From Phoronis australis (taxonomy: Eukaryota; Animalia; Phoronida), in contig NMRA01000529.1 of NCBI GenBank assembly GCA_002633005.1, positions 237,768-301,767 on the forward strand: a DNA stretch of 64,000 bases. Reading direction: 5' to 3'. Positions 25,008 through 61,613 of the stretch are shown here, one piece after another. Position 1 is the stretch's first letter; every line of letters starts with the position of its first letter. The notes under the pieces were generated by a model. That model worked only from the letters and a program-made list of their open reading frames with translations, was not told where the DNA came from and did not search any database. The translations under genes were made by a program, and so were the position numbers.

Positions 25008-25261
25008 TCATACAGTATCTTCCACTGTCGAACTATACACGTAAGAGGATGTGGTCTCCGAAAATAGTGCTCGTTGAGTTCCACCCGCCTGCTGTTTCTT
25101 TCTGCAAAATAGGCCCCGCCAGGCACTGCGCACTTGTTTCTCACGTACGTTAAAGAATATGAATATAAAGAAGACTTGCAGTGAATTACATATGCAGAAG
25201 ACGTACTGGAATGCAAGACGAGCTCCGTTAATGGCAAGAAATCCAAACACCCAAGTGAGTC
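25008..25261 (-). CDS. aGPCR last coding exon: TM6 end, TM7, C-tail, stop
   Basis: GLTWVFGFLAINGARLAFQYVFCICNSLQVFFIFIFFNVREKQVRSAW...TVEDTV*. Acceptor ttccag, phase 1. Confidence 0.93.
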
Positions 25262-28200
25262 CTGGAACGAGAAAAAGCAAAAAAATTACTGTCGTTAGCC
25301 AAATGCTAGTGAATTAAACAAACACAACGATTCACAAAGTAAAGTGCCCACTGCTCTCTTCTTTGGAAATGTGGAGATACGGTACTCAGAGAACAAACCA
25401 GTAATAAAACTGGACATTCATTTGGTTGCAACTGTGTTACTGGCAAAAGGTAGAGGCCCTTACACTAAATGCCTGCTATGATGCAGGACCCCTTGTAACA
25501 CGAAGGCTGCCTTGAATTTCTTGTCAAACTAAGAAGGGATCAAAGGATTATCTTCACTACGATGAGCAATGTAGTCGAATCTCCCACTTCTGGGGATTGT
25601 TCTGCTTTTTGAAGATTTGTCAACCGGCGTCCTGCCACTGACACCATACAAAGGTCCCACTTGTTGGTACAGGCCGGAATTGATTTATCACAATCCACGT
25701 TGCCATATTTTCCCGTTGTACTAAGAACTTTGTCACGTACTTCCCCAATTTGAAAACCCACCCATTGCACGTAGCCGTCCAGGTTTCTTTCATTTCGCAC
25801 AGATCCCTCCTATACTACAAAGTATTCGGTTATGAATGAGACAGCATCAAGTTAAGCTTGAACAACCTCTCTGGGTTTGGTTCGCGCGTGTTAAACATCG
25901 CTCTTATCTAGCTTTACGAAACATTGATTCTACTTCTGTTTTGTATTATTTTGGGCTTAATTTGTCTTAATTGTAAACATACATCAGTAATTAGTTATTG
26001 AAGCATCAAATCCACCCATGAATAGGAAAGTTATGACCTTTGATAGGCTTGAATGCAAGTCTTCCAATACACTGTGCAAAAACACGTAACTCACATGCAA
26101 TTACATGAAGCTGCTACCAGTGTGTTTGATATTGCCTCCGGCGAATCATTAGAAAACAACCTCACGCAATATGTCTCTTGGTGACTCATGTACCTAGCGC
26201 ACTCAACGAATATAAAATGCTACTGGATCGTTTTTGTGTGTTTCGCCAGACAATTCAAGCTTGCGTTTTGGCCTTGACCTACATGTATGTATGTACGTCC
26301 TGTTTTTTCAAACAATGTCTTCGGTGTTTTTTAATTGGGAAATGTTGGCAACTATGAATGACTCGGAAATAATTTCAAAAATTGTAAAATCAGAAGTGGC
26401 CAGTGATGGAGTTTGAATTCAGATCAGATACAGATCCTGGCCATCCACTTCATGAGGACTCTGGTTTTGTTAAAATATATAGTATCATGTAGAATTAACC
26501 ACTGATATATACCTATGGGACTGTCGTTTTCAACCTTGTAACACCAAAGGTTTACCTTTGAGCTATTAACAATTACAAAAATGAACGACAAAAGCTTAAC
26601 ATAAACCTAGACCGATTGCGTCATTTCCACTGACTATGTGTCGACCCTATATTGGTTCCTAGGTCGACCATACCTACCCATCAATACTAGAGTAGACATC
26701 GCCGCGTACAGATGTAAGATGGCGATTTTACGTTCAGACTGGTTCACTGATAAACGAGTATTTCTCGCGCACGAGAGCCCGCGCATCACAAGAATGAAGA
26801 CGACTGTGTTGGTTGCTATGATGGTGCACACCGGAATCAAGAATCCGTAGTAAAAAAGCTCACGTGACAACCAGCAACTGAAACATGTAATCAAGGTTGC
26901 TCTTAATAAGAACAAGAAATGTCATATTCTGACGAAATTTGATGCAAGACTAACTTTGCCTTTGTTTCCACGTAAATGCTCTTCCACCCTATCATTCAAG
27001 ACTTTGCTTTGAAAGAATGTGAGCATTCTCACGACGTTATAAGTCCTAGTCGTAACTTAACAGAATTTGAACATTCTCAAGACATAACATGTTCTAGTCG
27101 TAACTTAAAAGCTATGCTTAAACCACATCACTTACTAGTCTTTACCGCCATACAGGTTGGGGTTGACTGCTAACGGCGTGACAACGCACAGCAAGGGAAC
27201 TCCTGTGGGCAATCAAATACGGCTAAGTATGCAACATGTGAATTTATTAAAATGATAATAATTGATACAATTGCTTAACAATTAATGCATTCTTCACGAT
27301 TATGTAGCTCTGCTTATTTCAAATTAATAGTTTAACATATATGATTCAAGGTCTACATTAAGGGCTTGTCTGCTTGTTTCATAACAAACGAAGCTGTTTC
27401 TTTTTGAGATGTCCTTATCAACATGACTTTTTTACGAATACATCCTTCTTTGAAACACACAAATGGCGGATTAAAAAAGTGTTTTGAATCGTTTTATTTT
27501 CCAGCATTTATACAGTATATCCGTATCAGTTCAGAAGGTTCGTGTCTTCATCTACCCCATGCGGTAAGGCTTGTACAGGTCAATATGTGATGTGAACTGA
27601 CTGCATCCGCGATATGTATGCGACTAAACTGTGTACAATTGCAGCATACAAATCTCTTTGAGATTCTAAATTGCTTTTTGACCAACTGAATAGCCATCCT
27701 ACATGTAACTGAATAGCCATCCTACATGAAACTGGCGTTCACCTAAAGATGTATTACAGTTTTGTTGCCTTGGGTCTCCATTTCCCGAAAGAAATAAACT
27801 TTACTGCGAAATCTGAACACTGCACATTACAGACAATGTTTCTCGAAGTCACCTGAAGCCCCTATGAGGTACAGTACATCACCTGTCCACAGACTTCTGC
27901 TGAAAAAATGTTGTCGCGCTTCCTTGATTCGCTGCTACTTAAGCTGCAACATGTATGCATTTCATGAAGGTGCTCTCTCAGTTTTATGGCAAGAATCGTA
28001 TGCACTTTTTTACACGCAGTTTAAATAGCGCCGCGGAGAAAAGCCTGCATCGATACGTTTTAAGAGACATGTTTGTAAATCTGACATTAACGCTGCGGCT
28101 TTTCGTTTCCCTGACCAACAACTTTGGATTTCACGAGCTTTTTTATCCTAAAGGATGGACATTTTTCCCAGAAAACGATCTTGAAATTCAAGCATGGAGC

Positions 28201-31200
28201 CTGGGCAGATTTCAGTAAATCGTGAGACCTTGAAGCTACGGCGGAAAATCTTTGCCTATGAAAATTCTTGCCCGCAATTTGTTAGGTCTACACCATAATT
28301 CAACATCTCAACATCGCCGGTCAATCATGTTGCTAGGAAATGATAGTAAGTTTTGTACCCTTCTTACGAAATACTCCCTTTCACTCGTATGTATTTTTGA
28401 GACCGTGCTTTTTTCACTAGATAACTGACATGGGTTCCGTAGAGGCGACAGTTTCCCGAATACGTGAGAACACGCAAGAGTATTCAGTATATCGTTAAGT
28501 GGTACCACGTATGATAAATCACATCAGCTTGCCTAGCGGCATTTTTGAGTTTTCAAAGCTTTATCCAGGTCTAAGAAAAACTACACCGGATTGTTTTCTT
28601 GTGTGCTTGAAAAGACTACGAAATCCTTCATGGAAAAATCCAGTGAAAGCGAGGCATGTGACGTTACTATCAATAGCGAAGAGTAATTCTTGTTAGAGAG
28701 CTAGCTCCTAACCAGCAGACCTAACTCACCACAGCTCGGCCAGTGACACACCTTGGGGACTGTTGGTACTACTCACCCCACGCAAAGAGACATGCCTTCA
28801 TCATGAATCGTGGCACATAAGTACCGAGCACCTTCACAAATTTTAAATATTGCAGAATTCCTTCGACCAGCATCCAGCAGAAGGAGACGAGAATCAAGTA
28901 ATGAAGTAGAACAGCCACCGCAACACAACCGCTTCTGTTGGTCGTCTGCTCCACTCCGGCTAAGAACACAATCATACTCAACAAAAGGGCTACGGAGAGA
29001 TTGAAGAGGGACTGTTGTGAACGGCCTTTGCCTAGCTTTTTGAACCCTGCGATGGACCTGTTTGATTTGCAGCATCGGCTGAATAACCTATGTGTTGATA
29101 AAAAAGCGAATCATCAGCTGTATTAATAAAGATAAAACCTTTGCAAAAACATGAAGCACTCGACAATAAATAATTCTTAGAGTCGATGTTGCGAAAATGT
29201 TTTTGACGTCATAATATAAATAAAGCAGGGGCGTTGGGAAGTAGGAACATGTCCATGTAGTCTGCGCTTTACCTCAAGTAGGACTACATTTGTATGTCCA
29301 TGTGGTCTGCGCTTTACATCAAGTCCCACCTGTGAAGGGCGGAGGCCTTGCAACATTTATTTAATTTACAGGCTACGTTCGACAACGTTTTGAAATTGCA
29401 TCACATTGTTTAACGAGGAGTAAGTATGATGATTTACTTTACGCTACCGCGAAAATAACAGTTATCTCATTTTCACATATTGGTTCCTTAGATGGAACAT
29501 AGTAGCATCGATTAAAACAAATGCTGCCGCAAACTAAAAAGCCAGCGCACTGCATCTGTCAATCTACAGACAATTCTTACATTTTACAACTAATTGCTCA
29601 CCTGAATACGAGGAAGGTGCTTATAGTGCAGAAAAGGCCGATGATAGATAATGACAGGCCAACGATACTGATGATGGACAAAGCAAGCTTGTGACCTTCG
29701 TCAATTGGCGTTCTGTGTACATCCTGGAGAAAATAGACCCAGGAAACGTATATAAAGCAGCTTTACATAAAGCACACAGCTTATCAAGAGTTCACGTGTA
29801 AACCAGATGTGCACACCAACGTGGGAAGGCACACACACACGTACACGCACGAGGCACAAACACACGTACACGCACGAGGACACGCACGAGCGCAAGAACA
29901 TGCAATGTAAAGTTGTAAGTGATTTAATGGATGAGTAGCAACACGTGTTTCAAACACCTTTTGCACACGTATTCCATCGTGAGATTGGTCAACGATTCCA
30001 AGATGTTGAAAATATCACATGGCATTAAGCTTACTACGCTTCACGTATTTACTTCAAGAACTCTTTTTAGTTGCATGCATACACAATGATTACTCCTTTA
30101 CACTTTTAAACATCTGTTTTTGAGGGAAATGATGTTTGTGTTTCGCGTTATTCGGTATTTTCCCATCCCACTTGATACTCCAATCAGCAACTCACGTTGT
30201 TGTAACTCGCGTGACAACTTTGTCACACTTAGTGTGGCTATGTTCCCTGGAGAATGAAATGTGGCCATAATTCACTGAAGGTATATGGTACCAATGGCAG
30301 ATGATGTACTAAGGATTTTCAGTCCACCCTATTTATACTCGAAGGGCCTGTTCACCAGTGGCTAGCTGGAGTTGGTGAAGTTTAATTATGTAATGGATAA
30401 AACGAAAGGGTTGAAATTGATTTTTCGCGAGGATTATGCTTCAAGAATTGTGCTTGCAAACCCACCAATATTGGTCTATGTGCCATCAATATAGTTATCA
30501 ATTCTGGAAGGTTTACGAATGAAGTAAGAGAGCACTGCTTGCCAGTTTAAACTAGGTAAAAGTGGAGTGCTCAAAACTAAGTATACATAATCGGTTGTAA
30601 AAACTTTAAGTCACCTTGCAAATAGCGAAGTACTTTATATTCCACAAGGAAGGTTTACTAATAGACACGCTGTTCAATCTATTGCAGTAGATTTTCCCAA
30701 CATTAAAACAACACAAGTAGCGTGGTGTGCTCATATTGGACCGGTGACATGGAACCAAACACCTGGACATTTGTTATTTCACCTACCTACTATTTTGAAC
30801 TTTAACCTACACAATAAACTATCAGAGAGTTTCTAACACTAGTGCTTTCATTTAAAAATGAAAGCACGAGTGTTTGCTTAAATTTGAACAGATGGATTTC
30901 AGTAACCATGTCCAACTAAGAGTTTTCAAAGTAACGTTTGCTGAATATTGTACTCACCAAAAGTATTGCAAAGTTTGTGAGGTGGTTACACATGCAAATA
31001 TGTCGCTCATTTACACTACCGTTGCTCCAACATCCGTCTTGACTAAAGTCTGAAAGGCCATGGTCCCAGTAACCGCACGCAACGGAGCCGCTTGAAAAAT
31101 CACCCTGAGAAAAAAAGTATGTCACTTTAACACAGGCCTATGACTTAACAATAAAATTTGGTTCATTTCTATACTTTGACAGTGTAAGGGTTACCTTAAG

Positions 31201-37200: not shown

Positions 37201-40200
37201 ACAGTTTCACATAAAAGTAAATAATTACTATTTTCATAAACCAAGGGTGTATATAATGAGTATAGCATAAAACTGTGTCTTTATTTTTTATCCCTAGCCA
37301 TAACAGTTCTTTAAACGCATCACTTGTCTGTAAAATATACAATTTTTTTGAGACAACTTCAAACCTTTGCTACCCATTTTTAGTTAGCCTTTTTAATTTT
37401 GATACTTTCAGCAATTTTAAACTCAGATTACAGGTTCATGGGTCTGTCAAGCATACTTCTAGCCTAAGGTTGAGGGAACCGTTTTTCTTCTAATAGAATA
37501 TATGAAGACTTGGGTCATTTAAAAATGATGGATAATGTTTCTGTTGTAATTACAAATCTTAAGGCACCATGAAAAATGGCAGTCATTTGAATTTATAAGG
37601 TCTTGCAACATTTCAAGGCATGAGTTAAGACTATTCAGTCACTGTGAATTCGGAAAATGTAATAAATTTTCGTGGTTTTGCAATTGATACAAGTAGCAAA
37701 ACAGTTTCATGAAATCAACTTGAAGGGACTTCGTGAAGGTTAAGAATTACCTCACCATGCTCTTTTCCCCATACATGTATTACCTTTTATTTCCACACAT
37801 CCAGTTGTACCAAATATTGCAACCCCCATGGCAATCCCCCCACGGGACCTGAATAAGTAATTTAACAAAATGACTTGTTGTCTCCAATATTGAAAGTAGG
37901 CTTTGACAACAGATCTGCACTGGATGGGAAGATCTTGTTGGTTAGCTGCAGTCAAATGCTAAAAACCAATTTTTGTCCATTCAGGGACGGTACAGAAGCG
38001 ATGCATATCTCCTCTGCACGGTACAAGCCTTCAAACCTAAAAACAAAAGCTTACGTGAAAACTGACGTGATAGATTTCCATTTCAACGTGTAATAGATTT
38101 CCAGAAGACATATGATAGGGAGTAATTAAATATTAGTCTAATGCAATGGATATTTATCACTCGCGTACCCTTTGGCATTGGGACTGGATTGTAATCTTAA
38201 CTCATTAACCTGTATCGAGTTGCCAGCATAAACATTCAGCATTGATTGATGTAACTGTCACTGATAAACTTTTAGAAATCATTCCAAACAATAATAATGC
38301 TTTGATGTACGAAAAGATGCCGATTGCTACGTCAAGTATCGTATCACATATCACAACATACAAACATTAACCAGACTCTGGCTGGCGACTACCTGCCGCG
38401 AAGTCGACATCGGCGAGTGCCTCAGTTAACAAGCATCGGTAGAATAGTCATGGAATAATCGTTAAAATAATCACAAACCTTACCTTTGTATGAGGTCGTG
38501 CTTACTTGCTCTCATAGAAGCACCCTTTTTACGCAATCTCAGATTTAGTTGGCACGGCTGCAAGCCATTTCACCATGTATTTAAATGGCTCGCGAAATCG
38601 AGGCTGTTAATCTATCACCACTAGTACACGCACGCCCTCTAGTTATTGTAGATTTTCCGAATAGCCCCATTAAACATAGTCTTAACTCACGACTCGACCA
38701 ATGGACGGCGCTCCCGTCACAAAATGAATAAAAGTACAAAAAAGTTAAGGTTATGTTAAACTTTATGTAGTGATTCTTTAACTCGTATATCAGACATCCA
38801 GGCTACACTAACTAGTAAAATACATATTTCCTGAAAGAACAAAAATCAGGCAGCATAAAAATATCTCATTATGATTATTATATTAGCTGTTTTGTCGGGT
38901 TTCAATGCATAGAGGAAACTATGTTAAGGGAGGAGGTAACGTTGGTAAGTGAATAGTGCAACACATGGACCATGCGAGAGACTGGAGAATCAAGAAATGA
39001 AATGGAGATACATGGACATCGCCCATCAACAAATATACGTGTTGTTTCGTTTTTGTGCTATAGGTAACCGATTTTTGCATTTTAAACAACGAAACATGTC
39101 AACGGTCATTTCGAATTGCACGATACTGATTAGTTTAAACTCGGGAGATTACCTCCCAAAACTCTCTGCGTTGACGGTCCCACGCGCTTTACGTGACAAT
39201 GATAATTAACTTTTATTGCAATAACAACTCGTAACATAAAACTCTTAGTTGTAGGTTGCATATTACATATACTTACTCTTTTTACAGGCAGAAACGTGGC
39301 TGTGAGGGGTTCATCTAATTCGACTTTCACTGATCTTGTGTTGACTTTTGCCGAGACAATTTTACTGAAGGTGACCCACTGTTTAATGCCTGGGCTGCTA
39401 CCGGATACTTCGTATCGAGTTTGGAACAGTTTCCAGTTGTTGTAAATGATAAAGCTTATCTTCTGACCAGCTGCCCACTCTAAAGACGAGTGCATAAGTT
39501 TTCGGTGAATCAGCTGATATCGCCTGAGCAGTTAAATGACGGAATTCCATATACAGTTGTAAACATGTCTTTATCTATGGTACAATAGACTTATTAAAAT
39601 CAAAAAAGCTAAAATCAAACACTAACCACTTAGTTACAGTACAGTGGGTACACCAAATCGCCAACTGGGCTACAACAACCTGACAAAGCAAGTTTTTGAC
39701 AAGCTGAGTGAGCGGATCAGCCGTAGTGATAATAGACGTACATGTACACGTGTATTGTAAGGAACGTGATGTTGTGGCTCAGTTTGTGCCGCATGGGAAG
39801 GATTGCTGATGGGTGAACAACCTTATCTATGTCATCCAAGTGTCCAAAACAAAGAAATGTTGTGTAACCATCATCAACCTTCAAAGATTGGAGAATTTTT
39901 CAAAAATTCTTTAAAAAATCCGCTAAACAGGCAAGCATGAGCTACACTTTAGGTAAATTACACATGTGTAGCGAAAGACCGCTCACCAATTTGCGACATA
40001 GCGTGTGTGTTTTTAGACGAAGCCCACTTTTATAGATCAAGTGAGACGCTAATGGTGCATAAGTACATACATGTACACTGAGCTGTACCTGTATAACCTG
40101 GTTACTTGATATTCTGGTAAAACAGGTATTGGTATAGTCTTTCTAGAAACACACAGTTGTCTACGTCAACATACCAATCGAAGAGCTGCGTTTAAATATA

Positions 40201-43200
40201 CACGGTCACCTGAAAAACCTGTTACAGTGGCATGCATTTCCAAACCTTACTTACCTGGGACATACACATGTGATGTCCAGCCTTTTACGCGATCTAATGA
40301 CTCATAGGATGTAAACGTGCTGCACAGTTCGCACGTTCTTGACGTTTCGTCGAAATTAAAACCGACACAAGTGTACGGGAAGTTGGACGAGTTTGAGTTC
40401 TTGCGTGTGTCAGCACATACGAAGGCACAGTATGCGGCACTAGAGGGTGTGGCAGCATCTGCAAACTCCCAGGCACAACCGACAATCCTGGTATTCCGGG
40501 ATTCGTTGAATAGGTGCAGAACACCTAGAAGACCAAGACAACAATGAGAGCGTTTTGTGAAAATCACTAGTACTTAAGTTAGGCCATGTTTCATTTTATG
40601 AGATTTGTGTTTGGCGACCCATCATCTGGTCTCTTTCATACATATGCAAGTCAATTCTGATCTGATTAATGACCAAGTTTGGACCATGAAACGATATCAA
40701 TTCAACAGGTGGACTAGTAATAGTCCGGAAAAATTACTAGAACTTTAGTGGCTTTAGGTCGTTAACTTTGCATTGTGATATACATGTACATGTTAACGAT
40801 TTGTTTTCGTTGAGGTGTTGCGTTCTCAGCGCTAAGCGATGAAAACGTGGAGAGTACTAAACCTTTTGATTTCATTCACACATCGAGTGTTCGTTCAAGA
40901 CTCGCACTATAGATAATCGTGTAGGCTATGATTTCGGATTTCAACAACATGAACCTTTAGTGGATGTAGACTTCGGAAAGACAGAGATATAGAACATCAT
41001 CCACTAAGTGGATAGGATTTCGCCATTCGTAACATTCCACTGGGTTTGTGAATATCGTAAGCTGGGTAAAGCACGAAACCTTTTGGTTCTACAACCGACT
41101 TGGGCAGTCTGATAGTCAAGTCAGTAGCGTTGCTGCTTCTGTCGACTCCAGCATTGTACAACGCCTCCACCGACCTCTGTTCCAATCCACTTTTCCTTGC
41201 GCTACTGACAACTTGAATGCCACTGACTTTGTCCGTTGCGTTAACGCCTTCTTGAAAAACTGCTATGGCAATGTTGGGTAAAACGTCTACAAAACTCGAG
41301 TTTGGGTCAAGTTGAATTTGGCTGGCAATGGATTCTAGTATCTTCGTTAACCTACAAAAAGTCATTAAGAGCTTGCTATACAGATATAACCGTAGTCGTA
41401 GATTTAATACGTTTCCTTGCACTTCCCGTAACGCAAAAATGCTGCTAACACCATCTGATTACCATCTGATTACCATCTGATTACCATCTGATTAATCATC
41501 AGTGAGGGACATTATACATGCCGTTGAACCACATTGACGAATTAAGGTTTTGAGGACTGACCAATAAGAAATTTGAAAAGCTGATCATTTGACCATTAAC
41601 GTAAACTCTGTCCATTCCAGTTGACCCAAATTTCTAAAACTCTCTAAGCTACCCCTGATGGCCACCAACTTTGAGCTAACCGGCTGCCACAATTGATGGC
41701 AATAGTTTTGTGGGGATGCTCTCGTTGCTGATTGAAGCCCTCTGAAGATGTATCTTACTTAGCATAGTGGATAATATGGGACTGCACTAAGGTCTGTGAG
41801 AGAGTATAGACTGTATCGTCGGGTCAAAACGTGAAAAATTCATTTTCTCCAACGAACATCTTCATTGATCTGTTTGAAGACCTTTGATTGAGCATTGAAT
41901 AACTACAAACCTCGGCACTGTATCGTACAGAAACATCACATAGCGAGGCCGTGGCATTAGAAAAGGAAACGCCAGCTGCTTTACAGAGCGCCACTTCTGT
42001 TTGAGTTCGGGAAGATCATGCAATGACTATACATGGTGCATTAGTCCGCAGGTGCACCACTCCAAAGGTATATTTATTCTAAAGTTCGTTAGTCCGAAAA
42101 ATATATATTTTAGACTCGGCAGTATTTTTCAGTTCTTCTACATCCAATAATAAACATCACTTCGGTTGACAGACTCAGTAGCGCAGGTTAACACAGTGCA
42201 GGGCTGGAGGACCAAGTGCTTCAGAAAATTCCGATCCCAAAGAAAATCCCCCAACATTTACTACGTTGACGTCCTTGGATAGAAGTTACAGCAATGACGT
42301 ATGACCTATGTAGAATGGTACACATTAAACACCATGGTCATAAACGCTTGGAATCGGTTACCAACAATTGTGATGTTCTACTTTTAAGTATTTCTTCTTC
42401 AATTTATGCACTTCTAATCAAGAAATAAATGCAAAAATTTAAGAGACAGTCCATATAAAAACCAGTAGATTTTCAAAAATCAGTCTATACGTCAAAATTT
42501 AAAATAACTTCATTTTTTGTACATGAGTAGGTATCCTAACATAAATCCAAATGCCAAATTTTGTGCACTCAATGACTCCTAATTTCGCCGCTGGAGCATG
42601 ATAACACAAATTGGCACAATTGGGCATATTAGCCGTCTCAAAAATCGCATGTTTTCAGCAACAAAAATGAGTAACATACAAAATAGATCGAAAGCTATAT
42701 TTTGGTGGCTGAAATAACCAACGTATACTGTACATAATTATGTGCCATTTATCAAAATCTGACAGTTTTGTGCTAGACAGGGGAGATAATCCACAGACCA
42801 CTTTTGGGGGCTAATTTTAGTGGCCATTTTTGTGACCTTCTCACTGCCATAAAACACCTTGTAGCCTTATGTGACGTTTTGAACGTACAGTTAAAGAGTT
42901 AGTCTTGATGACTGAGCAATAAAAAATCTTGCCTCAACTTTGCACCTTAGTGAAAATTGTCTTGCAAAACTGTCTATTTTCATAGTTTGGAAATGACGAA
43001 CAGACTTTACAGACCATTTGAACAAACTTTTAGGCAAGAAGTCTGCTTTACATAGTCATAGAAACAAAGTCTAAACTCTTTCAAATGAAAACAAGATGTT
43101 TTCCGGATTTATTACGCGGCTAGTATCAAAACTGAACCCGATGACCTTTGCCCACCTTTGAGGGAGTCAGTTGAGGTTAAGCTTGAGGATATATAAAAAA

Positions 43201-52200: not shown

Positions 52201-55200
52201 ATGAGTTTCGTAGAGCACCGACGAAAATTGCATTTTAATATTTTTTGGCTTAGTTCCGCCTAATTTGTAGCCCTTTGGACTAGTGCACTTTCGGACTAGT
52301 GCATTTTCGGACTAGTGAACGTTAAGGCTAGTGTACCTTTAGACTTGTGAGCTGCCTCACATGGTGACGGCTTCGCTAGTCAGTTCAAAACTATGCTAGA
52401 TTACACGTACATGTGGGTTAGAAAATGGCTACTGGACGGCGTGGGTGGATTTTTTAACATGAGCAAGTCTTTCATGGCCAATACCTTAAGATTTTATCTG
52501 CGTTACAGAAAACCCCAAAATGCATTTCGATTGGCATGTAGTCACTCCCATTGACCACACAATACTCGAATGTCTATTGGATGCAATATGTGAACATGTG
52601 TTAGCAGTTGACTTTGCTAGACCTGACGCAGAATCTTGACGCAAGCATCCCGCGTTCGATGAGTACGATACCTTGACGACGTATTGTGATCCTTCTGAGC
52701 AATTGCAAAGGTAGTTGTATTAGCACCCAGCACATTGTCAAAGGTCCTCAATATGTTTTTCGTTACCTGCAAGAAAAATTTAGAGAAAATCATGTAGGTA
52801 GTCTGATGATAAGTAACACGCTGTTTGACTTTTTGAGTGTTGAAACGCTAATGGATAACATTGGTCACTATTCTGTTGTATAACAAGAAAAAATCAAACT
52901 TGAGCATACGTGAAATTGTTGCATTAACGCGTGTATAGTTAACTCTAAAAGTAGCCGAGTTTCGCGTTATTTTTTTTTAAATATGCATGTAACATTCCAG
53001 TTACAAATAAGTAATTACGCACGTTATCCTAATACACTGCCTTACTGACACGTGCATGTTTCAGACAGCGCTCTGTCAACAGGTGATCCAGTCGCTCTCT
53101 AATGTCTCGAACATGGCTCCCCTCCCAAATCCAACACTCTTCTCTGAGCATGCTTTTACCTGCTTCGAAATATTTGTTAGCTGGCTAACACTGCTGACTA
53201 TGGATGATACCAAAGTGATATCGGCAGAGTTCAGCTCTGTTCTATTCGACGTTAGCTCAGCTGTTTCCCTGGTCACGGACTCAACGTTTGAAACGTTAAC
53301 AGTTACCTGATAAGACGAATACAAAGCTAAAATAGAATCAGGTATAACCCGCATTATTGGAAAAGCGCAGGATGACAAATGTGTTCACCAGGGGAAACTT
53401 TCCAGAAAAGTAATTAAGTCAAAAATCTTGTCTGACACACAAAAAGAGTATTTCAGAAACACCGTATCGCAATTCAGCAAAGTAGGGCGATGAGAATATT
53501 TCCCAGCGTCCCGTTCCAAGGAAACTGACTTAGCTAAGACAAATGTTAAATGTTAGCCAATTTCAAGATAAAGCCCCAATTTGTCTTACGTCTGGTTCAA
53601 GAAAGAGATCTTAAGATTGGCTTGAGTTTTTGACTGAAGGTTTGTCTTCATTTTCACTAACATGCCAGATGTGGAAGTTTTTAAAATTGAAGGTTGACAC
53701 AAAAAATAAACTTGACTCAAAAAATAATGAACTTTTAAGTTCATTTCCTTTCTAACGGGTCCTAGGTTTCTAAATATTCACTTACTTGTGTAACTTCTTT
53801 ATTAAAAATTGTAAAATAAGTATTCAGATACAATGTAGCCAAATGAAAACACAAGATTTCGGACCTGTACGTGGGCTGATCTTTAAATGTATGGCTAACA
53901 ATATATGCAAAGAAATAGTCGTTTTTTACAAAAGCGCATTTCACAATGAATGCGCTTTTCTTTTGACCTTCACAGAACTTATTTCGGTAGCTCATCCACA
54001 CGACCATATCCATGATGGTGAAAAAAGACCTTTTCTTGTAATAGCGAAAAAGGATATTCTGATGCAAAAAATTTCCTATAATGGCGAAGAATATTTTCTG
54101 AAGTCCCCAGTTCAACAGGTGCTTGTGACCAGCGGATAAATGATAAATAACGACAGCAAGATCCAACATTTACATGTAATCGTCAATAAAAATCTAAAAA
54201 ACTCGATCGGAAAGTACCTAGAGCCTATTTCATGAAAATGACATACATGTAAGTCTTAAGACAGAAATTTTGTCTTAAGCTCGTCTCCTTTCACAGTTGC
54301 TGAATAAAGGCTTAGTCGACTAATAATGAGCACATCGCAGTCTAAAAACAATTAATAGAAATTAAATTAGTAACTAGTGGTTATGTGAATAATTTTAGAG
54401 GCTTTGATCATTTTGTCAAGTGAAATTTCATAATTTCTCGGAAGTAGTAATGTGGAGTGGAAGACATGTATCTTAAGTCATACCCATAATACAATACCCT
54501 GCAAATGGAAACAAGCGCCCGATTTAGAGCATTGGGCATGCGTAAAACTTACATGTATAGCAAAATCTATCAATAGCGGATTTGCAGCGCAAACAAACTA
54601 CGCATTGCGCATGTGCGAGTTACTTCCTGCGCGAAGGCTCATGGGATAGCTTGTGGTCAGGCATGTCTTGAGCAGGCTGGATAGTGTGTGCATTTGGAGT
54701 GATTTGCAAACTAAAAACCATGTTTCATTTTTTTGCTTTATAATACCAAGCAAGTCCTCTCTCTCGTTTGTAAACACAGCGTAGCTATGATCAGTGACCG
54801 TGTGACCGAGGGCACAACNNNNNNNNNNNNNNNNNNNNNNNNNNNNNNNNNNNNNNNNNNNNNNNNNNNNNNNNNNNNNNNNNNNNNNNNNNNNNNNNNN
54901 NNNNNNNNNNNNNNNNNNNNNNNNNNNNNNNNNNNNNNNNNNNNNNNNNNNNNNNNNNNNNNNNNNNNNNNNNNNNNNNNNNNNNNNNNNNNNNNNNNNN
55001 NNNNNNNNNNNNNNNNNNNNNNNNNNNNNNNNNNNNNNNNNNNNNNNNNNNNNNNNNNNNNNNNNNNNNNNNNNNNNNNNNNNNNNNNNNNNNNNNNNNN
55101 NNNNNNNNNNNNNNNNNNNNNNNNNNNNNNNNNNNNNNNNNNNNNNNNNNNNNNNNNNNNNNNNNNNNNNNNNNNNNNNNNNNNNNNNNNNNNNNNNNNN

Positions 55201-58200
55201 NNNNNNNNNNNNNNNNNNNNNNNNNNNNNNNNNNNNNNNNNNNNNNNNNNNNNNNNNNNNNNNNNNNNNNNNNNNNNNNNNNNNNNNNNNNNNNNNNNNN
55301 NNNNNNNNNNNNNNNNNNNNNNNNNNNNNNNNNNNNNNNNNTTACTCCCAGCTCTCCTAATGTTGTTTATCCATTTTTCACGAAGTTCTTGGTTTACAGG
55401 GAACACATAAAAACTCAGATTTTTATCTGTCTTGTTGTTTTTGAAGCAGCCAGGAACACAAGTGTATCCGCCGTAAGTTTTCTTCGCGCTCATACCGCGT
55501 ATTATACTTGTTACTATGGCCGCTTTCGGAATCCTGACCACAGCACCCACAATGCACCATTTTAACCTAATTTCAATATGGCGTCGCTGCAAATCCGCTA
55601 TTAACGTACTCTGCATTATATAGAGAATGATTTGGCGCCGTGTATCTTACTCAGTGCTGTACAAAACAAATGTACTGCAAATTCAGAAGTGATTACCGTG
55701 TTATTAATGTAAGTTTGAACATTCACATTCACATTTACTTTTCTGTTGTAAGCGTATTAATACAGTTTAGTGGGATTAACAGATCCGAGTACTTACAGAA
55801 GATAGGTTTCTGAGTAAACCGGTCACAGCGGATTCCTGCTCAGCACAAGGAGTGACTCCAGAGATTTCGTTAGATAAATTTCTCAAGCACCTTAGCTGAA
55901 TCGACAGTGCACCAGCTACAACCAAAACACTTCACTGTGTATCACCAATAAGCAAAAGACGTGTTGCCGGGTTGTAATACCTAGTACAACCGTTGAGCTC
56001 CTGAATACCCTTGTGAATGCATAATGACGTCATAAACTGGAAATTGCACTGTTTGTGGGGCGCGCGAAAAGAAAACGGTATTTTTCAAGTGGGTCAACAG
56101 GATGAGGCACAGTTAGGTCATTTTAAATCTAATTAAATATCCCCTTAAATTAAATGATATTGAACATTACATGCTTTATATTTATCTTGTGACCCCATAT
56201 GTAAACTTGGTGTCTTAACGGAGACCTTGTGGTTTTTGCGGAGAGTTATTGATACTTGACGATTGAAAATGTTTTGAAAGAAAATTTCCAGTAGAAAACA
56301 CTTCGGTGAGGAAATCCTAATAGGTCAAAACAGGGTTTTAACATGTTTTGAATTGATAAAAGGTTATAAAAATATCTATGAAAGGAGACTCCAGAACTGC
56401 AATGCGAGTACTTACGAACACAACTGTTTTTGGACACCTGACTATGATTCTTGGTAGTATATCCTTCTTTACATGGCACGCAGACTCTCTGCAAGGCTTT
56501 GGGCTGGTAAGTACCAACAGGGCAGTTGACACACGCTCCATTTACCGACTTCTGGCCTGCAGTGCAGTTACCTGAAAGAAACGCGAAAGGGTCAATATGA
56601 ACAATTGAACACTATCAACAAGCATTCTGAAAAATGTATCATCAAAACCTGCAGTATTTCTTAAATAAACAATTTATGGGAGAAAAATAAATTGGAATAT
56701 ATAGTTTTCAAATTGGAGCAGGTTAAGCAACACAATATACACCAAAGGAATGTATGTTGTTCTTATTCTATAAACTAGAGACAACTTATCAAATATTCCT
56801 CCAGATATGTTGCAGTTTACAATAAATGATCAGTTATTTTTTGAAATACCAGTACATAATATTAGAAGCACATGTATGACCATCCCATAACGTGTCTTAA
56901 ACAAGCACCGGGTAGAGAGATCGGCATATTAAAAACGAAATAAAACCATACACGATAATCTATGAAAAGGTTTTAATGCAAATTTAGAAAAACGTTTAAA
57001 TAAATACCAAAAGGAACAGGAGACATTTCGAACATAATACGCTTAAGGACGATACTAAGACCTAAGCGACGTGAATTGAAGATGGCAAAAAGCCTACAAA
57101 ACACTTTAATCTGTAGTCTGGAAAAAGAAACTACATTCACAAGTGACGATTACTAAACTAAATAATGATTTCCTCTATAGAGGTCGCTCTCAGTAAAATT
57201 CACGTCTTTTATGTCTTTTACTGTAGCCTTTACATCTCAAAATCAATAATACTCATCAAATCATAATCTTATTGTGTGCAGGCGTCACTGTCACAAATAT
57301 GGATGGGTAATATGTTCTAACAAATTATTAAATGAGTACGCCAATTTTCAGGCCTTAAATCAAATATCGAAAAAACTCGGTGTGTATGGATTGGATGCAT
57401 GAAACATTTAATTTGCGTTTTTAACTCAATTTGCATTTATTTCATTGTAGATGTAATTTTTCTGTTGTTATCTATATTGTTCTTCTTAATTGTCAATATC
57501 TATGTAACTTATTGTTAGTCCGTGGTCAGCTATTAGCGGTGCCTTTGCTGGCCACACAGTCATATGTTTTATATGATTTTAAAAATAAACGTTTCTCTCT
57601 CTCTCTCTGAGATCATTTTGTGCCTGGAAAGAAAGTTTAAAATGAAGTAGAGGAACATTTATCAATATGGGAGTTACATGTACATACACGTATAGTGTAG
57701 ACCTGGAACATATTTAAAATTTGAACAGCGGCGAAAAAAGGAAGGAAATAAATAGAATATTGAATGCCTGTCTTACAGCGCAGTTATCTTTCACCAAAAT
57801 TTGCCCATTACTTTGCCACACTCCCGTCTCTTTCCCAAGCATCATTTTTAAAATTCATTGATGGTCAAAAGAATGATAAAATAGCTAGAAAGTATACGAC
57901 CCAAGATTATGACAGTGGCAGATTTAGAATGGTCCACCTGGCTTCTCACACTGAAACTTACGTGGATCCGTAATCCAAACTATACTTGAGGATATACAAG
58001 TGTTTGTACTAAAGCATTTTGTAAAAATTGGCATTTGTGGTGTTCCGGAGCTGATTGTTGTAATGCTAGCTGTTCTCAACTTAAAAATAAGTTCTGGATT
58101 GAAGTATTCTCGGTCTTGAAAAATTTGTCAAGATGACCCAAGAGACATCGGCGGAATTTGAAAATCTTACTTATAAGCCGCTTTGGTACATTGATTCTTC

Positions 58201-60889
58201 AGTCAGCCTCAACAAAGAGTCATACCCAGGGAGTGATAAAGGAATAAGATTTGTATATGATATAATAGATAATGATGGACTTAGATTACAAGCCTCTACA
58301 TGTACAGGTATAGAGTTTTCCTTTAGACTTATGATGGACTTAGGAATGCAATATTGTCTGCCTCGGTCGGTGAGAGAATGTCAAATACTAGAGTGCTACA
58401 CGCACGCCTACCACAATATCCGGAAGTGTTCAAACAGATAACAAAAATAAGAAAGGGTCTAGTACAGTGTGTGATATATCTATTCGTTATACGAGGATAA
58501 AACTGATAGCACAGGCTAAAGGAATTTCAGAGATCGGTAATGAATCAACTATGGGTTGGAAAACAAAGTACATTACATATTTAATAATTTTCTCTTGGTG
58601 TAAAACTAAGATGGTTTCAGTGTGGATTAGTTCATATAATAATACAAGAATATGTACAAACTTCGTTTTTTTATAAGTGCGTATAGGATGAATATAGGTT
58701 ATCCCACATACTCAAGAAAACAACTGCCATATCCTATCTCCGGAGAATTCATTTCATCTGGGAATGTCCCAACGAGATCGAAGATCGAGTTCAGTCATTC
58801 CCAGATGAAATGAATTCGAGGATATTGCAGTAGTATTCCTAGGTATGTGGGAAAACCTATTTATCCCATATATTTTAACTTGTTTGCATCATCGTGGTAG
58901 TACCTTGTTGCCGTGTGATCCGGCTTTTTGGTATATAACCTCATAAATATACCCCGGAAAACAGGTAAAGCGAAAGACAATCAGTGAAACTGATTAAAAC
59001 CAGTCATACCTAAGCCACACGCGGCTGACGAAGTCGATCCCGTTCCGAAAGTGATTCCTTTAGAGCACTTTAGACACCAGTCTTCTGAGGAGTTGTCCCT
59101 GTAATATCCTTGGGCACAAGTCTGGCACTCGGACTTTCCGACCACGTATTCCGAACCAGAAGGGCAATCAACTAAATGTACAGAGGAAAAAACATAACAG
59201 TCTCTCAGTACTTGATTCTATGTTGTGTTTTGGTTAAACACACGTCTGTTAGTTGGGATAAACGATAAGTTTATTAAAAATGCGGGCGAAAGCCAGTGGA
59301 ACTTGAGTCTCATGTTTTAACCATGGACTTTGAAGAAGCCCGCAGGGTACATGTACCTTACCAATAGGTAACCCAAAACGTCACCCTTTTGAATGATTAC
59401 TCCCAATAAAATACATGTACGTTGCTTCTATAGTGAACACTACAAGACGGTACCTCAGATATTCAGAGGAAATGTAAAATAAATGAAGTATTCGGGGTAG
59501 TGGGATTTATCCCGTATTTCTTCGGATTTTGCAGGCATGATAAGGTGTCCATCGCATTACTTCTACATATACATGTACGACTGAAGAGATATTGTGATGG
59601 AACACAAACAAGTGAAATTACGAAAAATATTTTTCCTAAGGTCAAAACCTAACAGTACCCTTCATACTTAACTTCCATGAAGTGGTAAGGCCTAAAATGT
59701 GACCCTTCTTGCGACACATAATTGTAGCTCTTTCAACTGGGTAAATTACCTGGCGATGATGGGGGATAATAACCTAATGGCACCCACTCTTCGATATTCC
59801 AAGCATTAAAGAGTATCCACAATCACCCTGTGCTTCATAAAGAATTTTATTAATACATCACAAGTGAATGAATAGCCTTTAGAATAACTATTGCTAAGAA
59901 ATAAGCCAACAACTAAAATGTTTTTCTGTTATCGGTGTTGTTTATAATGGGTAGAAGACCGTTTTCGCGGTTGTTTTTAACAATGCGATACAAAAGAGTT
60001 GTGATGGAAAAGACCGAGGAGAGCCACCTTTTTCAGACATGAAAAGGTGCGTTTGTGATGACTGAGAACGTCTGTGCTCAAATTACTCAAACACGTGAAA
60101 GTTGCACAGAAATGTCATCGGTTTTTGTGCCACAGAGAGTGTGGAATGTCAACGGGGAACATGCGATTCAGTCGACAGCCACACTTTATTCGGCACATTT
60201 CAAGGAACCGTGTTTCGACCAAGCACAAAAAACAGCGTTACGATGAAGGACTTGACATCTTGAAATTGTGTTTGCAAATTTGATAAATAACGGACAAATT
60301 ATTTGCATTGTCTGATTCTTCAAGTATTTAAGTGCGGTGTTCTCCCTCTCCCTCTGCCTCCCCCTCTCCCTTCCACTCCTCCTCCCCCTCCTCCTCCCCC
60401 CCTCTCTCTCTCACTGCATAACAATTGTCCAGTTCTCGATCAAATTCTTCTGATATGCCGTGTTCCACCATTGCAATTGATTGTAAAGTGGCCAACCGTC
60501 TTCAGACCATTACATCATTTGGCGGGAAAATTGGAATAACTAATTTCTCATGAAACTTAAAAATCGTGATTATCTGGTATAAAACGTTCTTTTTAGTTAT
60601 AATTTCCAACAACTTTGCTTACAATGGCTATAAATCGTGAAAATTGACTTAAGAGTACATGATTTTGCACTAATTTTTCACCTAATTCTAAGACTGCAGT
60701 GTGCCAACTTACGTATGCACTTCAGCGCTGTTCCACTCCATGTCTTATCGAACTGGCATGTTCTTGAAAGGTTGCCGCCATATTGTTTATGTCCCGTATC
60801 ACATGCATACTTGGCAACATCCTCAAAAAGATTGGTGGTTGTATTTACGTTTGAGTTGGAGTTAACATCAGGAATACCGCAGCTGACTC
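25008..60889 (-). CDS. Adhesion GPCR gene span (Sushi, 2x ephrin-receptor-like, GAIN with PAN insert, 7TM); 5'-incomplete
   Basis: The 15 exons listed individually all have GT-AG boundaries and compatible phases. They total 2702 nt, about 900 codons, with no internal stop. Confidence 0.92.
26678..26877 (-). CDS. aGPCR exon: ECL2 CW motif, TM5, ICL3, TM6
   Basis: CWLSRELFYYGFLIPVCTIIATNTVVFILVM...AAMSTLVLMG. Phase 2 to 1, 200 nt. Confidence 0.93.
27136..27202 (-). CDS. aGPCR exon: TM4 (not in the ORF track)
   Basis: cccacag|GVPLLCVVTPLAVNPNLYGGKDY|gtaagt. 67 nt, phase 1 to 2, which exactly bridges its neighbours. Confidence 0.9.
28777..29087 (-). CDS. aGPCR exon: ICL1, TM2, TM3, ICL2
   Basis: LFSRCCKSNRSIAGFKKLGKGRSQQSLFNLSVALLLSMIVFLAG...GCVAVAVLLHYLILVSFCWMLVEGILQYLKFVKV...FAWG. 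Phase 2 to 1. Confidence 0.92.
29602..29723 (-). CDS. aGPCR exon: stalk and TM1
   Basis: DVHRTPIDEGHKLALSIISIVGLSLSIIGLFCTISTFLVFR. Boundaries ctccag and gtgagc, phase 0 to 2. Confidence 0.93.
30958..31104 (-). CDS. aGPCR exon: GPS motif with HL|T autoproteolysis site
   Basis: GDFSSGSVACGYWDHGLSDFSQDGCWSNGSVNERHICMCNHLTNFAILL. 147 nt, phase 0-0. Confidence 0.95.
33828..33925 (+). repeat. GGTCGAGGG(A/G)-based ~16-bp tandem array, likely a transposon subterminal repeat
   Basis: Several degenerate GGTCGAGGGAGTTGTG units. Confidence 0.75.
35277..38390 (+). repeat. ~1.5-kb near-tandem duplication (35277-36804 and 36918-38390)
   Basis: Both copies run from GGATACACAGACAGTCC to CTCTGGCTGGCGACT with scattered substitutions and indels. 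A single N at 36807 lies between them. Confidence 0.93.
39277..39479 (-). CDS. aGPCR exon: GAIN subdomain B strands
   Basis: EWAAGQKISFIIYNNWKLFQ...SKIVSAKVNTRSVKVELDEPLTATFLPVKR|gtaagt. Phase 1 to 0; an alternative in-frame acceptor lies 9 nt downstream. Confidence 0.9.
40255..40524 (-). CDS. PAN/Apple-like domain exon within the aGPCR GAIN region
   Basis: ttctag|GVLHLFNESRNTRIVGC...SAAYCAFVCADTRKNSNSSNFPYTCVGFNFDETSRTCELCS...GWTSHVYVP|gtaagt. 270 nt, phase 1-1, open. Shows the CxxxC...CxxFxF.....CxL pattern. Confidence 0.8.
41080..41351 (-). CDS. aGPCR exon: end of GAIN subdomain A and start of subdomain B
   Basis: RLTKILESIASQIQLDPNSSFVDVLPNIAIAVFQ...TDLTIRLPKSVVEPKG. Phase 2 to 1, 272 nt. 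Confidence 0.88.
41450..41494 (+). repeat. 11-bp tandem repeat (ACCATCTGATT) x4
   Basis: Direct reading. Confidence 0.95.
42443..45945 (+). mobile_element. Sola3-type DNA transposon, second family, internally deleted
   Basis: TTAA|GAGACAGTCCATATAAAAACCA ... TGGTTTTTATATGGAGTCACTC|TTAA, i.e. GAG..CTC termini. ORF 43586-44029 contains NAGCYHS, RYDLSKSQNGKDLCDGKIAPLKQH and GHVKG, homologous to the element at 14441. Confidence 0.8.
46920..48725 (+). CDS. Intact two-exon gene (46920-47194 + 48317-48725, 227 aa) encoding a P2X7-ballast/nanor-like Zn-binding protein; probable Kolobok accessory ORF
   Basis: The splice TG|gtaaga...ttgcag|G rebuilds a Trp codon. Acidic N-terminus, then WCTCDNC..ERVCCQEV..CIVYHGSFQPVCINRDVL..RMRHIAYRQFQRWVHGHLG..RVVIPACAVACIRAFYP..FQGF. 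Confidence 0.88.
47412..47560 (+). mobile_element. tRNA-derived SINE fragment in the intron of the ballast-like gene
   Basis: A-box TGGCGCATTGG and B-box GGTTCGAATCC at tRNA-like spacing. No full cloverleaf is evident. Confidence 0.55.
49597..49967. mobile_element. MITE nested in the Kolobok element
   Basis: ~37-bp inverted repeats TGAATGATATTGG..CACGA(G/A)AAGACTGACGACCCA at both ends. Confidence 0.7.
50025..51392 (-). pseudogene. Kolobok transposase remnant: frameshifted THAP exon and C-terminal exon, catalytic core not found
   Basis: MVHRCVCANCANTSQVEGVTLFRFPKDKHLAAKWHVFV, then a frameshift, then ICSDHFEDGCF..|gtaagt (exon ends 51146). C-terminal piece YVNEVRKNTL...APPMLSAGAPDVSKEEAVARMRSRY at 50025-50207. 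Confidence 0.75.
50560..50624 (-). mobile_element. tRNA-derived SINE head
   Basis: Minus strand carries TAGCTGAATGG (A-box) and GGTTCGATTCC (B-box); the stems are degenerate. Confidence 0.6.
52672..52766 (-). CDS. aGPCR exon: GAIN subdomain A helix
   Basis: ttgcag|VTKNILRTFDNVLGANTTTFAIAQKDHNTSSR|gtatcg. 95 nt, phase 0 to 2. Confidence 0.88.
53160..53306 (-). CDS. aGPCR exon: GAIN subdomain A helices
   Basis: VTVNVSNVESVTRETAELTSNRTELNSADITLVSSIVSSVSQLTNISKQ. 147 nt, phase 0-0. Confidence 0.9.
54575..55599 (-). mobile_element. THAP-bearing DNA transposon (ISL2EU-type) spanning the gap at 54819-55341
   Basis: Perfect inverted ends AGCGGATTTGCAGCG flanked by AT on both sides. THAP fragment GGYTCVPGCFKNNKTDKNLSFYVFPVNQELREKWINNIRR. 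Confidence 0.75.
55797..55915 (-). CDS. aGPCR exon: linker into GAIN
   Basis: ttgtag|PGALSIQLRCLRNLSNEISGVTPCAEQESAVTGLLRNLSS|gtaagt. 119 nt, phase 1 to 0, which the flanking exons require. Confidence 0.8.
56416..56571 (-). CDS. aGPCR exon: ephrin-receptor-like (GCC2/GCC3) Cys repeat 2
   Basis: GNCTAGQKSVNGACVNCPVGTYQPKALQRVCVPCKEGYTTKNHSQVSKNSCV. 156 nt, phase 1-1. Confidence 0.92.
56790..58330 (+). mobile_element. Highly decayed L1/Tx1-like LINE fragments
   Basis: QFTINDQLFFE at ~56810, EDGKKPTKHF..LEK at ~57080 and KPLWY..DKGIRFVYDIIDNDG at ~58175-58280. Interrupted by other sequence, including an AATAAA plus (CT)n-tailed 3' end near 57600. Confidence 0.55.
58682..58872. mobile_element. 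Hairpin (foldback) MITE
   Basis: GAATTCATTTCATCTGGGAATG pairs with CATTCCCAGATGAAATGAATTC, and ATAGGTTATCCCACATAC pairs with GTATGTGGGAAAACCTAT. Confidence 0.8.
59010..59171 (-). CDS. aGPCR exon: ephrin-receptor-like Cys repeat 1 (not in the ORF track)
   Basis: atttag|DCPSGSEYVVGKSECQTCAQGYYRDNSSEDWCLKCSKGITFGTGSTSSAACGL|gtatga. 162 nt, phase 1-1. Confidence 0.92.
60713..60889 (-). CDS. aGPCR exon: Sushi/CCP domain
   Basis: GVSCGIPDVNSNSNVNTTTNLFEDVAKYACDTGHKQYGGNLSRTCQFDKTWSGTALKCI. 177 nt, phase 1-1. Confidence 0.93.
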
Positions 60890-61570: not shown

Positions 61571-61613
61571 TTGAACAAATCAACGCAGTTCCGCTCCATG
61601 TAGTATCAGACTG
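61571..61613 (-). pseudogene. 3' stub of another Sushi exon, truncated by a transposon end
   Basis: QSDTTWSGTALICS|gtaagt parallels QFDKTWSGTALKCI of the neighbouring exon. It abuts CAGGGGCGGATCTAC at 61614. Confidence 0.8.

What the first reader, a model, noticed from the sequence alone, without database searches (positions are those of the whole stretch)
40255..40524. PAN/Apple-like domain exon inserted inside the GAIN domain of an adhesion GPCR
Seen: an open 270-nt phase 1-1 exon with strong splice sites and a PAN-type Cys pattern. It lies between the exon ending TIRLPKSVVEPKG and the exon starting ..KISFIIYNNWKLF. Known: these two segments are consecutive elements of GAIN subdomain B, and aGPCR adhesion modules normally lie N-terminal to GAIN rather than within it. 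Inference: a ligand-binding module has been shuffled into a GAIN loop upstream of the HL|T site. Because the exon is symmetric it can be skipped in frame, so it could act as a splice switch on autoproteolysis or tethered-agonist release. I do not know of this arrangement in characterised aGPCRs.
Basis: partly seen in the sequence, partly recalled or inferred. Interest (0 to 1): 0.8.

Follow-up and report, generated by a model that had tools for sequence, protein, structure and literature searches.

The report
PAN exon nested inside GAIN domain
In an invertebrate adhesion-receptor gene, an intact, in-frame skippable exon for a likely PAN binding module sits inside the receptor's self-cleaving GAIN domain, where it would add a binding surface to a loop predicted to lie near the cleavage site, but the shallow RNA data on hand cover only the flanking exons.

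Summary
Window 40524-40255 (-) is a stop-free 270-nt phase 1-1 exon with the best donor of the gene's 13. It lies in a 14-exon adhesion GPCR model (sushi, 2 ephrin-like repeats, GAIN, HL|T, 7TM) that reads open with or without it. It is PAN-like: Pfam PAN_1 E=0.0037, below the curated cut-off; Atlas hits PAN at 0.93; fold unresolved. Without it GAIN matches a homolog profile as one piece; with it the match splits at the s5s6 loop. None of 22 informative homologs has a comparable insert. By residue counting the loop likely equals ADGRB2's flap 1B, beside a cleavage-site flap. Three same-species RNA runs put reads on both flanking exons and none on the PAN exon, where about 7 were expected. That is suggestive, not decisive (P 0.002-0.3), and no junction of either form was listed. 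Best reading: a cassette exon, mostly skipped in these samples. An effect on cleavage or agonist release is untested. I found no published aGPCR with a folded domain inside GAIN; polycystin-1 has one at another loop. The scan had not noted this arrangement on other DNA.

The parts
40255..40524 (-). PAN/apple-like symmetric exon (phase 1-1, 90 codons, 6 Cys) in the GAIN s5s6 loop
   Evidence: no RNA reads
41080..41351 (-). GAIN exon B1: end of helix 6 and strands S1-S5, phase 2-1, weak donor
   Evidence: sense RNA reads in X1 and X2
39277..39479 (-). GAIN exon B2: strands S6-S9, phase 1-0
   Evidence: Pfam GPR128_GAIN_subdom_B E=0.011; aligns to latrophilin-1 4DLQ 268-331 at E=0.55; RNA reads
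40525..41079 (-). 555-nt intron upstream of the PAN exon
   Evidence: GT-AG, GC 0.39
39480..40254 (-). 775-nt intron downstream of the PAN exon, with decayed bits of a transcribed repeat at 39643-39791
30958..31104 (-). GPS exon, CGYWD...GC...CMCNHL|TNFAILL
   Evidence: Pfam GPS E=6e-11
52672..52766 (-). GAIN subdomain A exon 2 (phase 0-2)
53160..53326 (-). GAIN subdomain A exon 1; acceptor uncertain (53326 phase 1, or 53306 phase 0 after a missing exon)
56416..56571 (-). Ephrin-receptor-like Cys-rich repeat 2 (phase 1-1)
   Evidence: Pfam E=2.8e-07
59010..59171 (-). Ephrin-receptor-like Cys-rich repeat 1 (phase 1-1)
   Evidence: Pfam E=6e-06
60713..60889 (-). Sushi/CCP exon (phase 1-1); the 5' end of the gene was not found in the window
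   Evidence: Pfam E=1.1e-08
29602..29723 (-). TM1 exon
28777..29087 (-). TM2-3 exon
   Evidence: up to 71% identical to mollusc aGPCRs among the hits covering most of the query
27136..27202 (-). TM4 exon
26678..26877 (-). TM5 exon
25008..25261 (-). TM6-7 and C-tail exon with stop
   Evidence: sense reads 3' of it in X1 and X2

Best explanation
This is an open, symmetric exon for a likely PAN module that sits in the intron between two GAIN exons of an intact adhesion GPCR gene, and it is likely a cassette exon, skipped in most sampled transcripts and included in others. Shown: the gene model reads open either way; the skipped form gives a normal GAIN domain; the insertion point is the helix-loop between strands S5 and S6. 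Inferred: the exon arrived by phase-1 exon shuffling into an intron at this loop, in the same phase class as the gene's sushi and ephrin-like exons. Inferred: when included, the module folds as an appended disulfide-bonded domain on the N-terminal fragment, about 110 residues before the HL|T site, and adds a protein- or glycan-binding surface close to the membrane without breaking the beta-sandwich. Inferred and weakest: the loop likely matches ADGRB2 flap 1B next to flap 1, so inclusion or ligand binding would tune cleavage efficiency or force transfer to the tethered agonist rather than switch them off.
For: Both forms are stop-free. The skipped form scores 175 bits as one domain against a GAIN profile from 25 homologs; the included form splits into 82 + 84 bits at the insert. 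The loop is 18 residues when skipped, against 14-29 in 22 homologs. An AlphaFold model of homolog P0021 shows 14 main strands with strand 339-345, helix 347-354, loop, strand 362-369 at this site. Intact frame, 9/9 donor, exon-like GC (0.49 against 0.39 in the introns) and an even number of Cys suggest selection or recent arrival. Flanking exons carry sense reads in X1 and X2, the PAN exon none in 4 of 4 runs; about 7 reads were expected under full inclusion. ADGRB2 tolerates a 41-residue disordered loop beside flap 1, and flap swaps change autocleavage (PMC13062082).
Against: No read supports inclusion, and no junction of either form was listed. The zero is weak: in X1 six other coding exons also have zero coverage, and P(0) rises to 0.17-0.31 if reads are 4-fold duplicates. 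Near-perfect splice sites are more typical of a constitutive exon (general knowledge). No homolog or second copy carries the insert, so conservation is untested. The PAN score is under Pfam's cut-off and the single-sequence model (pLDDT 54) did not give a PAN fold. The flap 1B match rests on residue counting and recall, not on superposition; the passages read do not report flap 1B swapped alone.
Confidence: 0.45

Rival explanations
1. The exon is constitutive: every receptor carries a PAN-like domain inside GAIN, and the missing reads are sampling noise.
For: Best donor in the gene and a good acceptor between short introns. Coverage is very thin and clumped; in X1 six coding exons have no reads. 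Simulated P(0) is 0.09-0.31 at 3- to 4-fold duplication.
Against: In X2 the bins of all 8 other scored coding exons have sense coverage and only the PAN bins have none. P(0) is 0.002-0.01 without duplicates and 0.03-0.09 at 2-fold. In X1 about 4 reads lie on each flanking exon with none on the GPS exon; if these are mates, the fragments would be about 410 nt when skipped and about 680 nt when included (my inference from bin depths; pairs are not shown).
Confidence: 0.25
2. The exon is a passenger: a recent or individual-specific insertion, or a silenced leftover, that is never made into useful protein. The working receptor is the ordinary skipped form.
For: Zero reads; no homolog with the insert; the gene region is rich in mobile DNA and one upstream sushi exon looks broken by an insertion. 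The RNA came from samples that need not share this allele.
Against: Frame, phase, both splice sites and the Cys pattern are all intact. No terminal repeats or long direct repeats frame the exon.
Confidence: 0.25
3. The exon is chance intronic sequence, belongs to another gene, or encodes a Cys-rich loop that is not a PAN domain.
For: Pfam score below the cut-off; Atlas shared-feature count 155-156, under the 170 typical of true family members; fold searches found no PAN structure.
Against: Chance rates of 16 of 2000 and 4 of 200,000; PAN is the only Pfam hit at E up to 10; all ten best named Atlas hits are PAN clan; the HGF N domain is among 6 PDB sequence hits, weakly (E=0.84); flanking introns of 555 and 775 nt hold no other exon of note.
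Confidence: 0.05

Closest known systems
Unnamed protostome ADGRG-like adhesion GPCRs (Lingula LOC106166554 = P0007, Tegillarca P0001, Potamilus P0022)
   Same: About 40% identity over GAIN+7TM for P0007 and P0001 with the skipped form; same GAIN layout and HL|T site; P0022 also has ephrin-receptor-like repeats.
   Different: None of 22 informative homologs has more than 29 residues in this loop (108 with the exon); 12 of 12 homologs scanned have no PAN match at E up to 0.05. No close ortholog was found: the window row has no supported group in the tree.
Polycystin-1 / PKD1-like GAIN domains with subdomain C (PMC11697300; section 6, passages and supplement passage read)
   Same: An extra folded module nested inside GAIN subdomain B, in a family with autoproteolytic GAIN domains; shows that nesting is tolerated.
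   Different: Inserted between S9 and S10, an integral beta-sandwich extension and family-wide; here a mobile PAN-like module on its own symmetric exon in s5s6 of a 7TM receptor.
Human ADGRB2/BAI2 GAIN loop 770-810, flap 1B (PMC13062082; passages, section 12 and supplement passages read)
   Same: A long insertion in what is likely the same loop (by residue counting), beside flap 1 near the cleavage site.
   Different: Disordered, poorly conserved, 41 residues; not a folded domain and not reported as a separate cassette exon in the passages read.
PAN/apple domain family (Pfam PAN_1 PF00024, PAN_4; HGF N domain, prekallikrein apples)
   Same: CxxxC ... CxGFxF ... CxL core, about 80 residues, phase 1-1 exon.
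   Different: Score below the curated cut-off; two extra Cys (possibly a third disulfide, inferred); no close relative found (best hit a diatom repeat protein, E=6e-06).
Splice-regulated aGPCR ectodomains such as ADGRG6/GPR126 and latrophilins (abstract listings; detail recalled)
   Same: In-frame alternative exons change the ectodomain and tune signalling or ligand binding.
   Different: As recalled, those inserts are short linkers outside GAIN, not a whole domain within it.

Membership tests
Adhesion GPCR (class B2) | Secretin-type 7TM domain | tested here: met
   TM2-3 exon finds 33 PF00002 proteins among 398 candidates; model aligns through the 7TM
Adhesion GPCR (class B2) | GAIN domain with GPS directly before TM1 | tested here: met
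   GPS E=6e-11; 175-bit continuous GAIN match of the skipped form
Adhesion GPCR (class B2) | Cleavage-competent motifs: H-x-T/S, aromatic residue in C-x-F/Y-W, Gly-Cys | tested here: met
   CGYWD, DGC, CMCNHL|TNF in the sequence; criteria from PMC13062082; position of the aromatic residue mapped by spacing on the ADGRL3 alignment
Adhesion GPCR (class B2) | Actual autoproteolysis and tethered agonism | not testable with these tools
   needs expression
Adhesion GPCR (class B2) | N-terminal adhesion modules and signal peptide | tested here: inconclusive
   sushi and two ephrin-like repeats found; 5' end not found in the window
PAN/apple domain | Profile match at the curated threshold | tested here: inconclusive
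   PAN_1 17.5 bits against 21.4, E=0.0037; Atlas PAN clusters 0.93
PAN/apple domain | Four-cysteine core pattern | tested here: met
   CAFVC...CVGFNF...CEL; 4 of 200,000 shuffles, pattern written after the fact
PAN/apple domain | PAN fold | tested here: inconclusive
   single-sequence model pLDDT 54; Foldseek no hit at E up to 0.001; VIA best Z 5.1 to unrelated chains
Cassette (alternative) exon | Symmetric phase, frame kept when skipped | tested here: met
Cassette (alternative) exon | Both inclusion and skipping junctions in RNA | tested here: inconclusive
   no joint listed in 39150-41500; 0 reads on the exon, few on its neighbours
Polycystin-type extended GAIN (subdomain C) | Extra beta-sandwich between S9 and S10 | tested here: not met
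   insert is between S5 and S6; the S9-S10 region has normal length

The most novel reading that the evidence does not exclude
A natural splice switch places a ligand-binding PAN domain on the GAIN loop that borders the cleavage-site flap, so that one gene makes a plain receptor and a second isoform whose autoproteolysis or tethered-agonist release is gated by ligand binding or pulling directly on subdomain B.
Probability: 0.15. Interest if true: 0.78.

Novelty: new variant of a known kind. Interest (0 to 1): 0.52.

Why it matters
Adhesion modules of aGPCRs are described as lying N-terminal to an uninterrupted GAIN domain. How ligand or force reaches the buried tethered agonist is an open question. 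If this exon is used, it is a natural example of a binding domain grafted onto subdomain B near the cleavage-site flaps, with a built-in control (the skipped isoform). It also marks the s5s6 loop as a site that likely tolerates a whole folded domain, useful for placing sensors or handles in model aGPCRs. For now it is one gene in one genome with no transcript showing the exon, which limits the claim.

Tried and rejected
No whole genome is held, so paralogs and the donor PAN gene could not be searched; the window holds no second copy. Protein searches with the PAN exon (50 candidates, none at E up to 0.01) and the B1 exon (199 candidates, none) found nothing, so the gene itself seems absent from that database or over 2000 aa; these blanks are weak. 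The 1.84-billion representative search gave one hit, a diatom repeat protein. Metagenome scans with the PAN and B2 exons found no relatives. No RNA holder was listed in the index; the runs used came by species label. The single-sequence fold and two fold searches were uninformative. The spliced GAIN+PAN protein was not folded, so compatibility of the two domains is open. Transposon capture was considered: no terminal or long direct repeats flank the exon. An alternative phase-1 donor about 40 nt into the upstream intron is weak and unsupported. A direct alignment to ADGRB2 (8OEK) across the loop was not obtained, and the construct sequences of PMC13062082 are not among the supplements held (file 4 unreadable). 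A search for a hormone-receptor-like exon between the ephrin-like repeats and GAIN found none. Literature searches: (0 papers with adhesion GPCR + PAN domain + GAIN domain); none of the listings or passages read shows a folded domain inside an aGPCR GAIN, but subscription journals are mostly not searched.

Full report
Observation. On the minus strand, 40524-40255 is a 270-nt stretch bounded by a pyrimidine-rich TAG acceptor and a CAG|GTAAGT donor. It is open in phase 1-1 and encodes 90 residues with six cysteines. Its donor is the only 9/9 match to consensus among the 13 donors scored; the donor of the upstream exon is the weakest at 4/9. GC is 0.49 against 0.39 in both flanking introns. Such an exon of 200 nt or more appeared in 16 of 2000 Markov resamples of the interval.

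Host gene. Fourteen exons from 60889 to 25008, all with GT-AG introns, join into one open frame of 867 residues with the exon and 777 without. Order: sushi (Pfam E=1.1e-08), two ephrin-receptor-like repeats (6e-06, 2.8e-07), GAIN over five exons ending in CMCNHL|TNFAILL (GPS E=6e-11), then 7TM and a short tail. The 5' end was not found, and the acceptor of the first GAIN exon is uncertain: homologs have a small cysteine module there that I could not find, and an N gap lies at 54819-55341. The TM2-3 exon found 33 proteins among 398 candidates, mostly mollusc, brachiopod and arthropod ADGRG-like receptors. The best are 40-41% identical over about 600 residues to the skipped form. A tree of 22 rows (13 stored proteins left out as too short or lacking the GPS motif) puts the window protein in no supported group.

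What the exon encodes. PAN_1 is the only Pfam match at E up to 10 (E=0.0037; 17.5 bits, cut-off 21.4). The ESM Atlas ranks PAN clusters first at 0.93, with ten of ten named hits in the clan, but shared features (155-156) are under the 170 typical of true members; the two Atlas calls are one source. The CxxxC...CxGFxF...CxL core occurs once in the window and in 4 of 200,000 shuffles, with a pattern written after the fact. The HGF N domain is a weak PDB sequence hit (E=0.84). The single-sequence model is poor (pLDDT 54) and neither fold search found a PAN structure. I call it PAN-like, likely PAN, fold untested.

Where it sits. A profile from the GAIN regions of 25 homologs (8 of 33 left out for lack of the GPS motif) matches the skipped form as one 175-bit domain and the included form as two pieces split at the insert. 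From the Pro of the 'I.LP' strand to the Phe of the 'F.IY' strand the skipped form has 18 residues. Twenty-two homologs have 14-29; three truncated or misaligned rows (P0002, P0016, P0032) were set aside. The included form would have 108. The same region holds no cysteine in 20 of 25 homologs and at most two in the rest, against six here. An AlphaFold model of homolog P0021 (GAIN mostly pLDDT 65-90) shows 14 main strands; the insertion point falls at the end of the short helix between the fifth and sixth, i.e. loop s5s6 in the numbering of PMC11697300 by my count. The same segment aligns with latrophilin-1, ADGRG2 and ADGRG6 structures (E 0.04-0.09).

Link to cleavage. PMC13062082 (passages, section 12, supplement passages) reports that human ADGRB2 has a disordered loop 770-810, named flap 1B, beside flap 1 (848-856), which can cover the cleavage site, and that exchanging flaps changes autocleavage. 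In one search, P0007 query position 236 aligns with 8OEK chain position 340, which is residue 849 if L294 equals L911. The 'F.IY' strand starts 51 residues earlier in P0007 and in the window protein, which places its ADGRB2 equivalent at about 798-811. The loop before it therefore likely is flap 1B. This agrees with my recall of the ADGRB2 sequence but is not a superposition. The window protein keeps the features that paper ties to cleavage competence: H-L-T, Tyr in C-x-Y-W, and Gly-Cys.

RNA. No indexed RNA holder was listed; three raw-read runs and one contig set came by species label. About 18-19% of each raw run was read. At 90% likeness both flanking exons carry sense reads at depth 2-4 in X1 and X2 and a trace on B2 in X3; the PAN exon has none in 4 of 4 runs, and no joint was listed. 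X2 reads run past the donors of both flanking exons into introns, so some are unspliced. Over 24400-41500 at 95% likeness, X2 covers the bins of all 8 other scored coding exons at low depth, while X1 covers only B1, B2 and the 3' region and misses six coding exons (its joint list is cut and dominated by repeats). From about 4,300 exon letters, read approximately from bin depths, full inclusion predicts about 7 reads on the exon. P(0) is 0.002-0.01 for independent fragments, 0.03-0.09 at 2-fold, 0.09-0.19 at 3-fold and 0.17-0.31 at 4-fold duplication. So the gene is weakly transcribed, the data lean to skipping, and inclusion is not shown.

Mechanism. Most likely (0.45) this is a cassette exon gained by phase-1 exon shuffling into an intron at the s5s6 loop, mostly skipped in these samples. 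When included it would hang a small disulfide-bonded binding module on the N-terminal fragment, about 110 residues before the cleavage site, leaving the sandwich intact. PAN modules bind proteins or glycans (general knowledge); no ligand can be named here. An effect on cleavage or agonist release is plausible from the flap 1B link but untested. Rivals are a constitutive exon missed by chance (0.25), a non-functional or individual-specific insert (0.25), and chance or a non-PAN loop (0.05).

Comparison with what is known. The host is an ordinary member of the adhesion GPCR family. Nesting inside GAIN has a precedent in polycystin-1-like proteins, whose subdomain C lies between S9 and S10 (PMC11697300: section 6, passages, supplement passage). 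That paper also notes that GAIN loops frequently exceed 50 residues in vertebrate models; its loop-length figure could not be seen and may bear on how unusual a long s5s6 loop is. Passages of the 2026 review PMC13197933 (first 300,000 characters), PMC12716839, PMC2246102, PMC11039983 and PMC6667449 mention no PAN domain in an aGPCR and no folded domain or cassette exon inside an aGPCR GAIN. Eight library searches listed none by title or abstract start. The scan's own notes hold no match by words, sequence or place; one unreviewed note describes a pentraxin nested in a lectin domain of ADGRD2, a parallel that I did not check.

Verdict. A real and unusual exon arrangement: a new variant of a known kind. 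It rests on one locus, without conservation, a confirmed fold or a transcript that includes the exon. Interest 0.52; the splice-gated cleavage reading has probability about 0.15 and would merit about 0.78.

Noticed in passing
window 61580-61619 (-): 40-nt 3' remnant of a second sushi exon with an intact donor, 58% like the 60889-60713 sushi over 19 residues; the DNA 5' of it is non-coding or transposon-like, so the exon looks split by an insertion.
   Followed up: partly
window 53327-56415: No exon found for the small cysteine module that homologs carry just before GAIN; a 523-N gap (54819-55341) next to a THAP-like frame lies here and may hide it.
   Followed up: partly
window 31850-38670: The 8.2-kb intron between GAIN exon B2 and the GPS exon is filled with repeats that draw many reads on both strands; 33030-34400 draws plus-strand-type reads at depth up to about 200 in X2, from this or another copy.
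   Followed up: no
window 41000-41080 and 38675-39277: X2 has sense reads running through the weak B1 donor and the B2 donor into the introns: unspliced or intron-retaining RNA. Read-through at B1 would end at a stop near 40997 and give a truncated, membrane-less product.
   Followed up: partly
window 39643-39791: Three short patches about 92% like a highly expressed sequence from elsewhere (about 100 reads each on two of them in X1 and X2), a decayed repeat in the intron after the PAN exon.
   Followed up: no
window 43574-44331, 46890-47198, 48291-48725, 51171-51476: Transposon-like frames in the 11-kb GAIN intron, including THAP-like and P2X7-tail-like segments (names recalled from motif appearance, not tested).
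   Followed up: no
window 4799-5128 (-): Frame with a C-type-lectin-like motif (WYNASLYCQQ...LVVPEDKEEQIWI), possibly an exon of another gene (label recalled, not tested).
   Followed up: no
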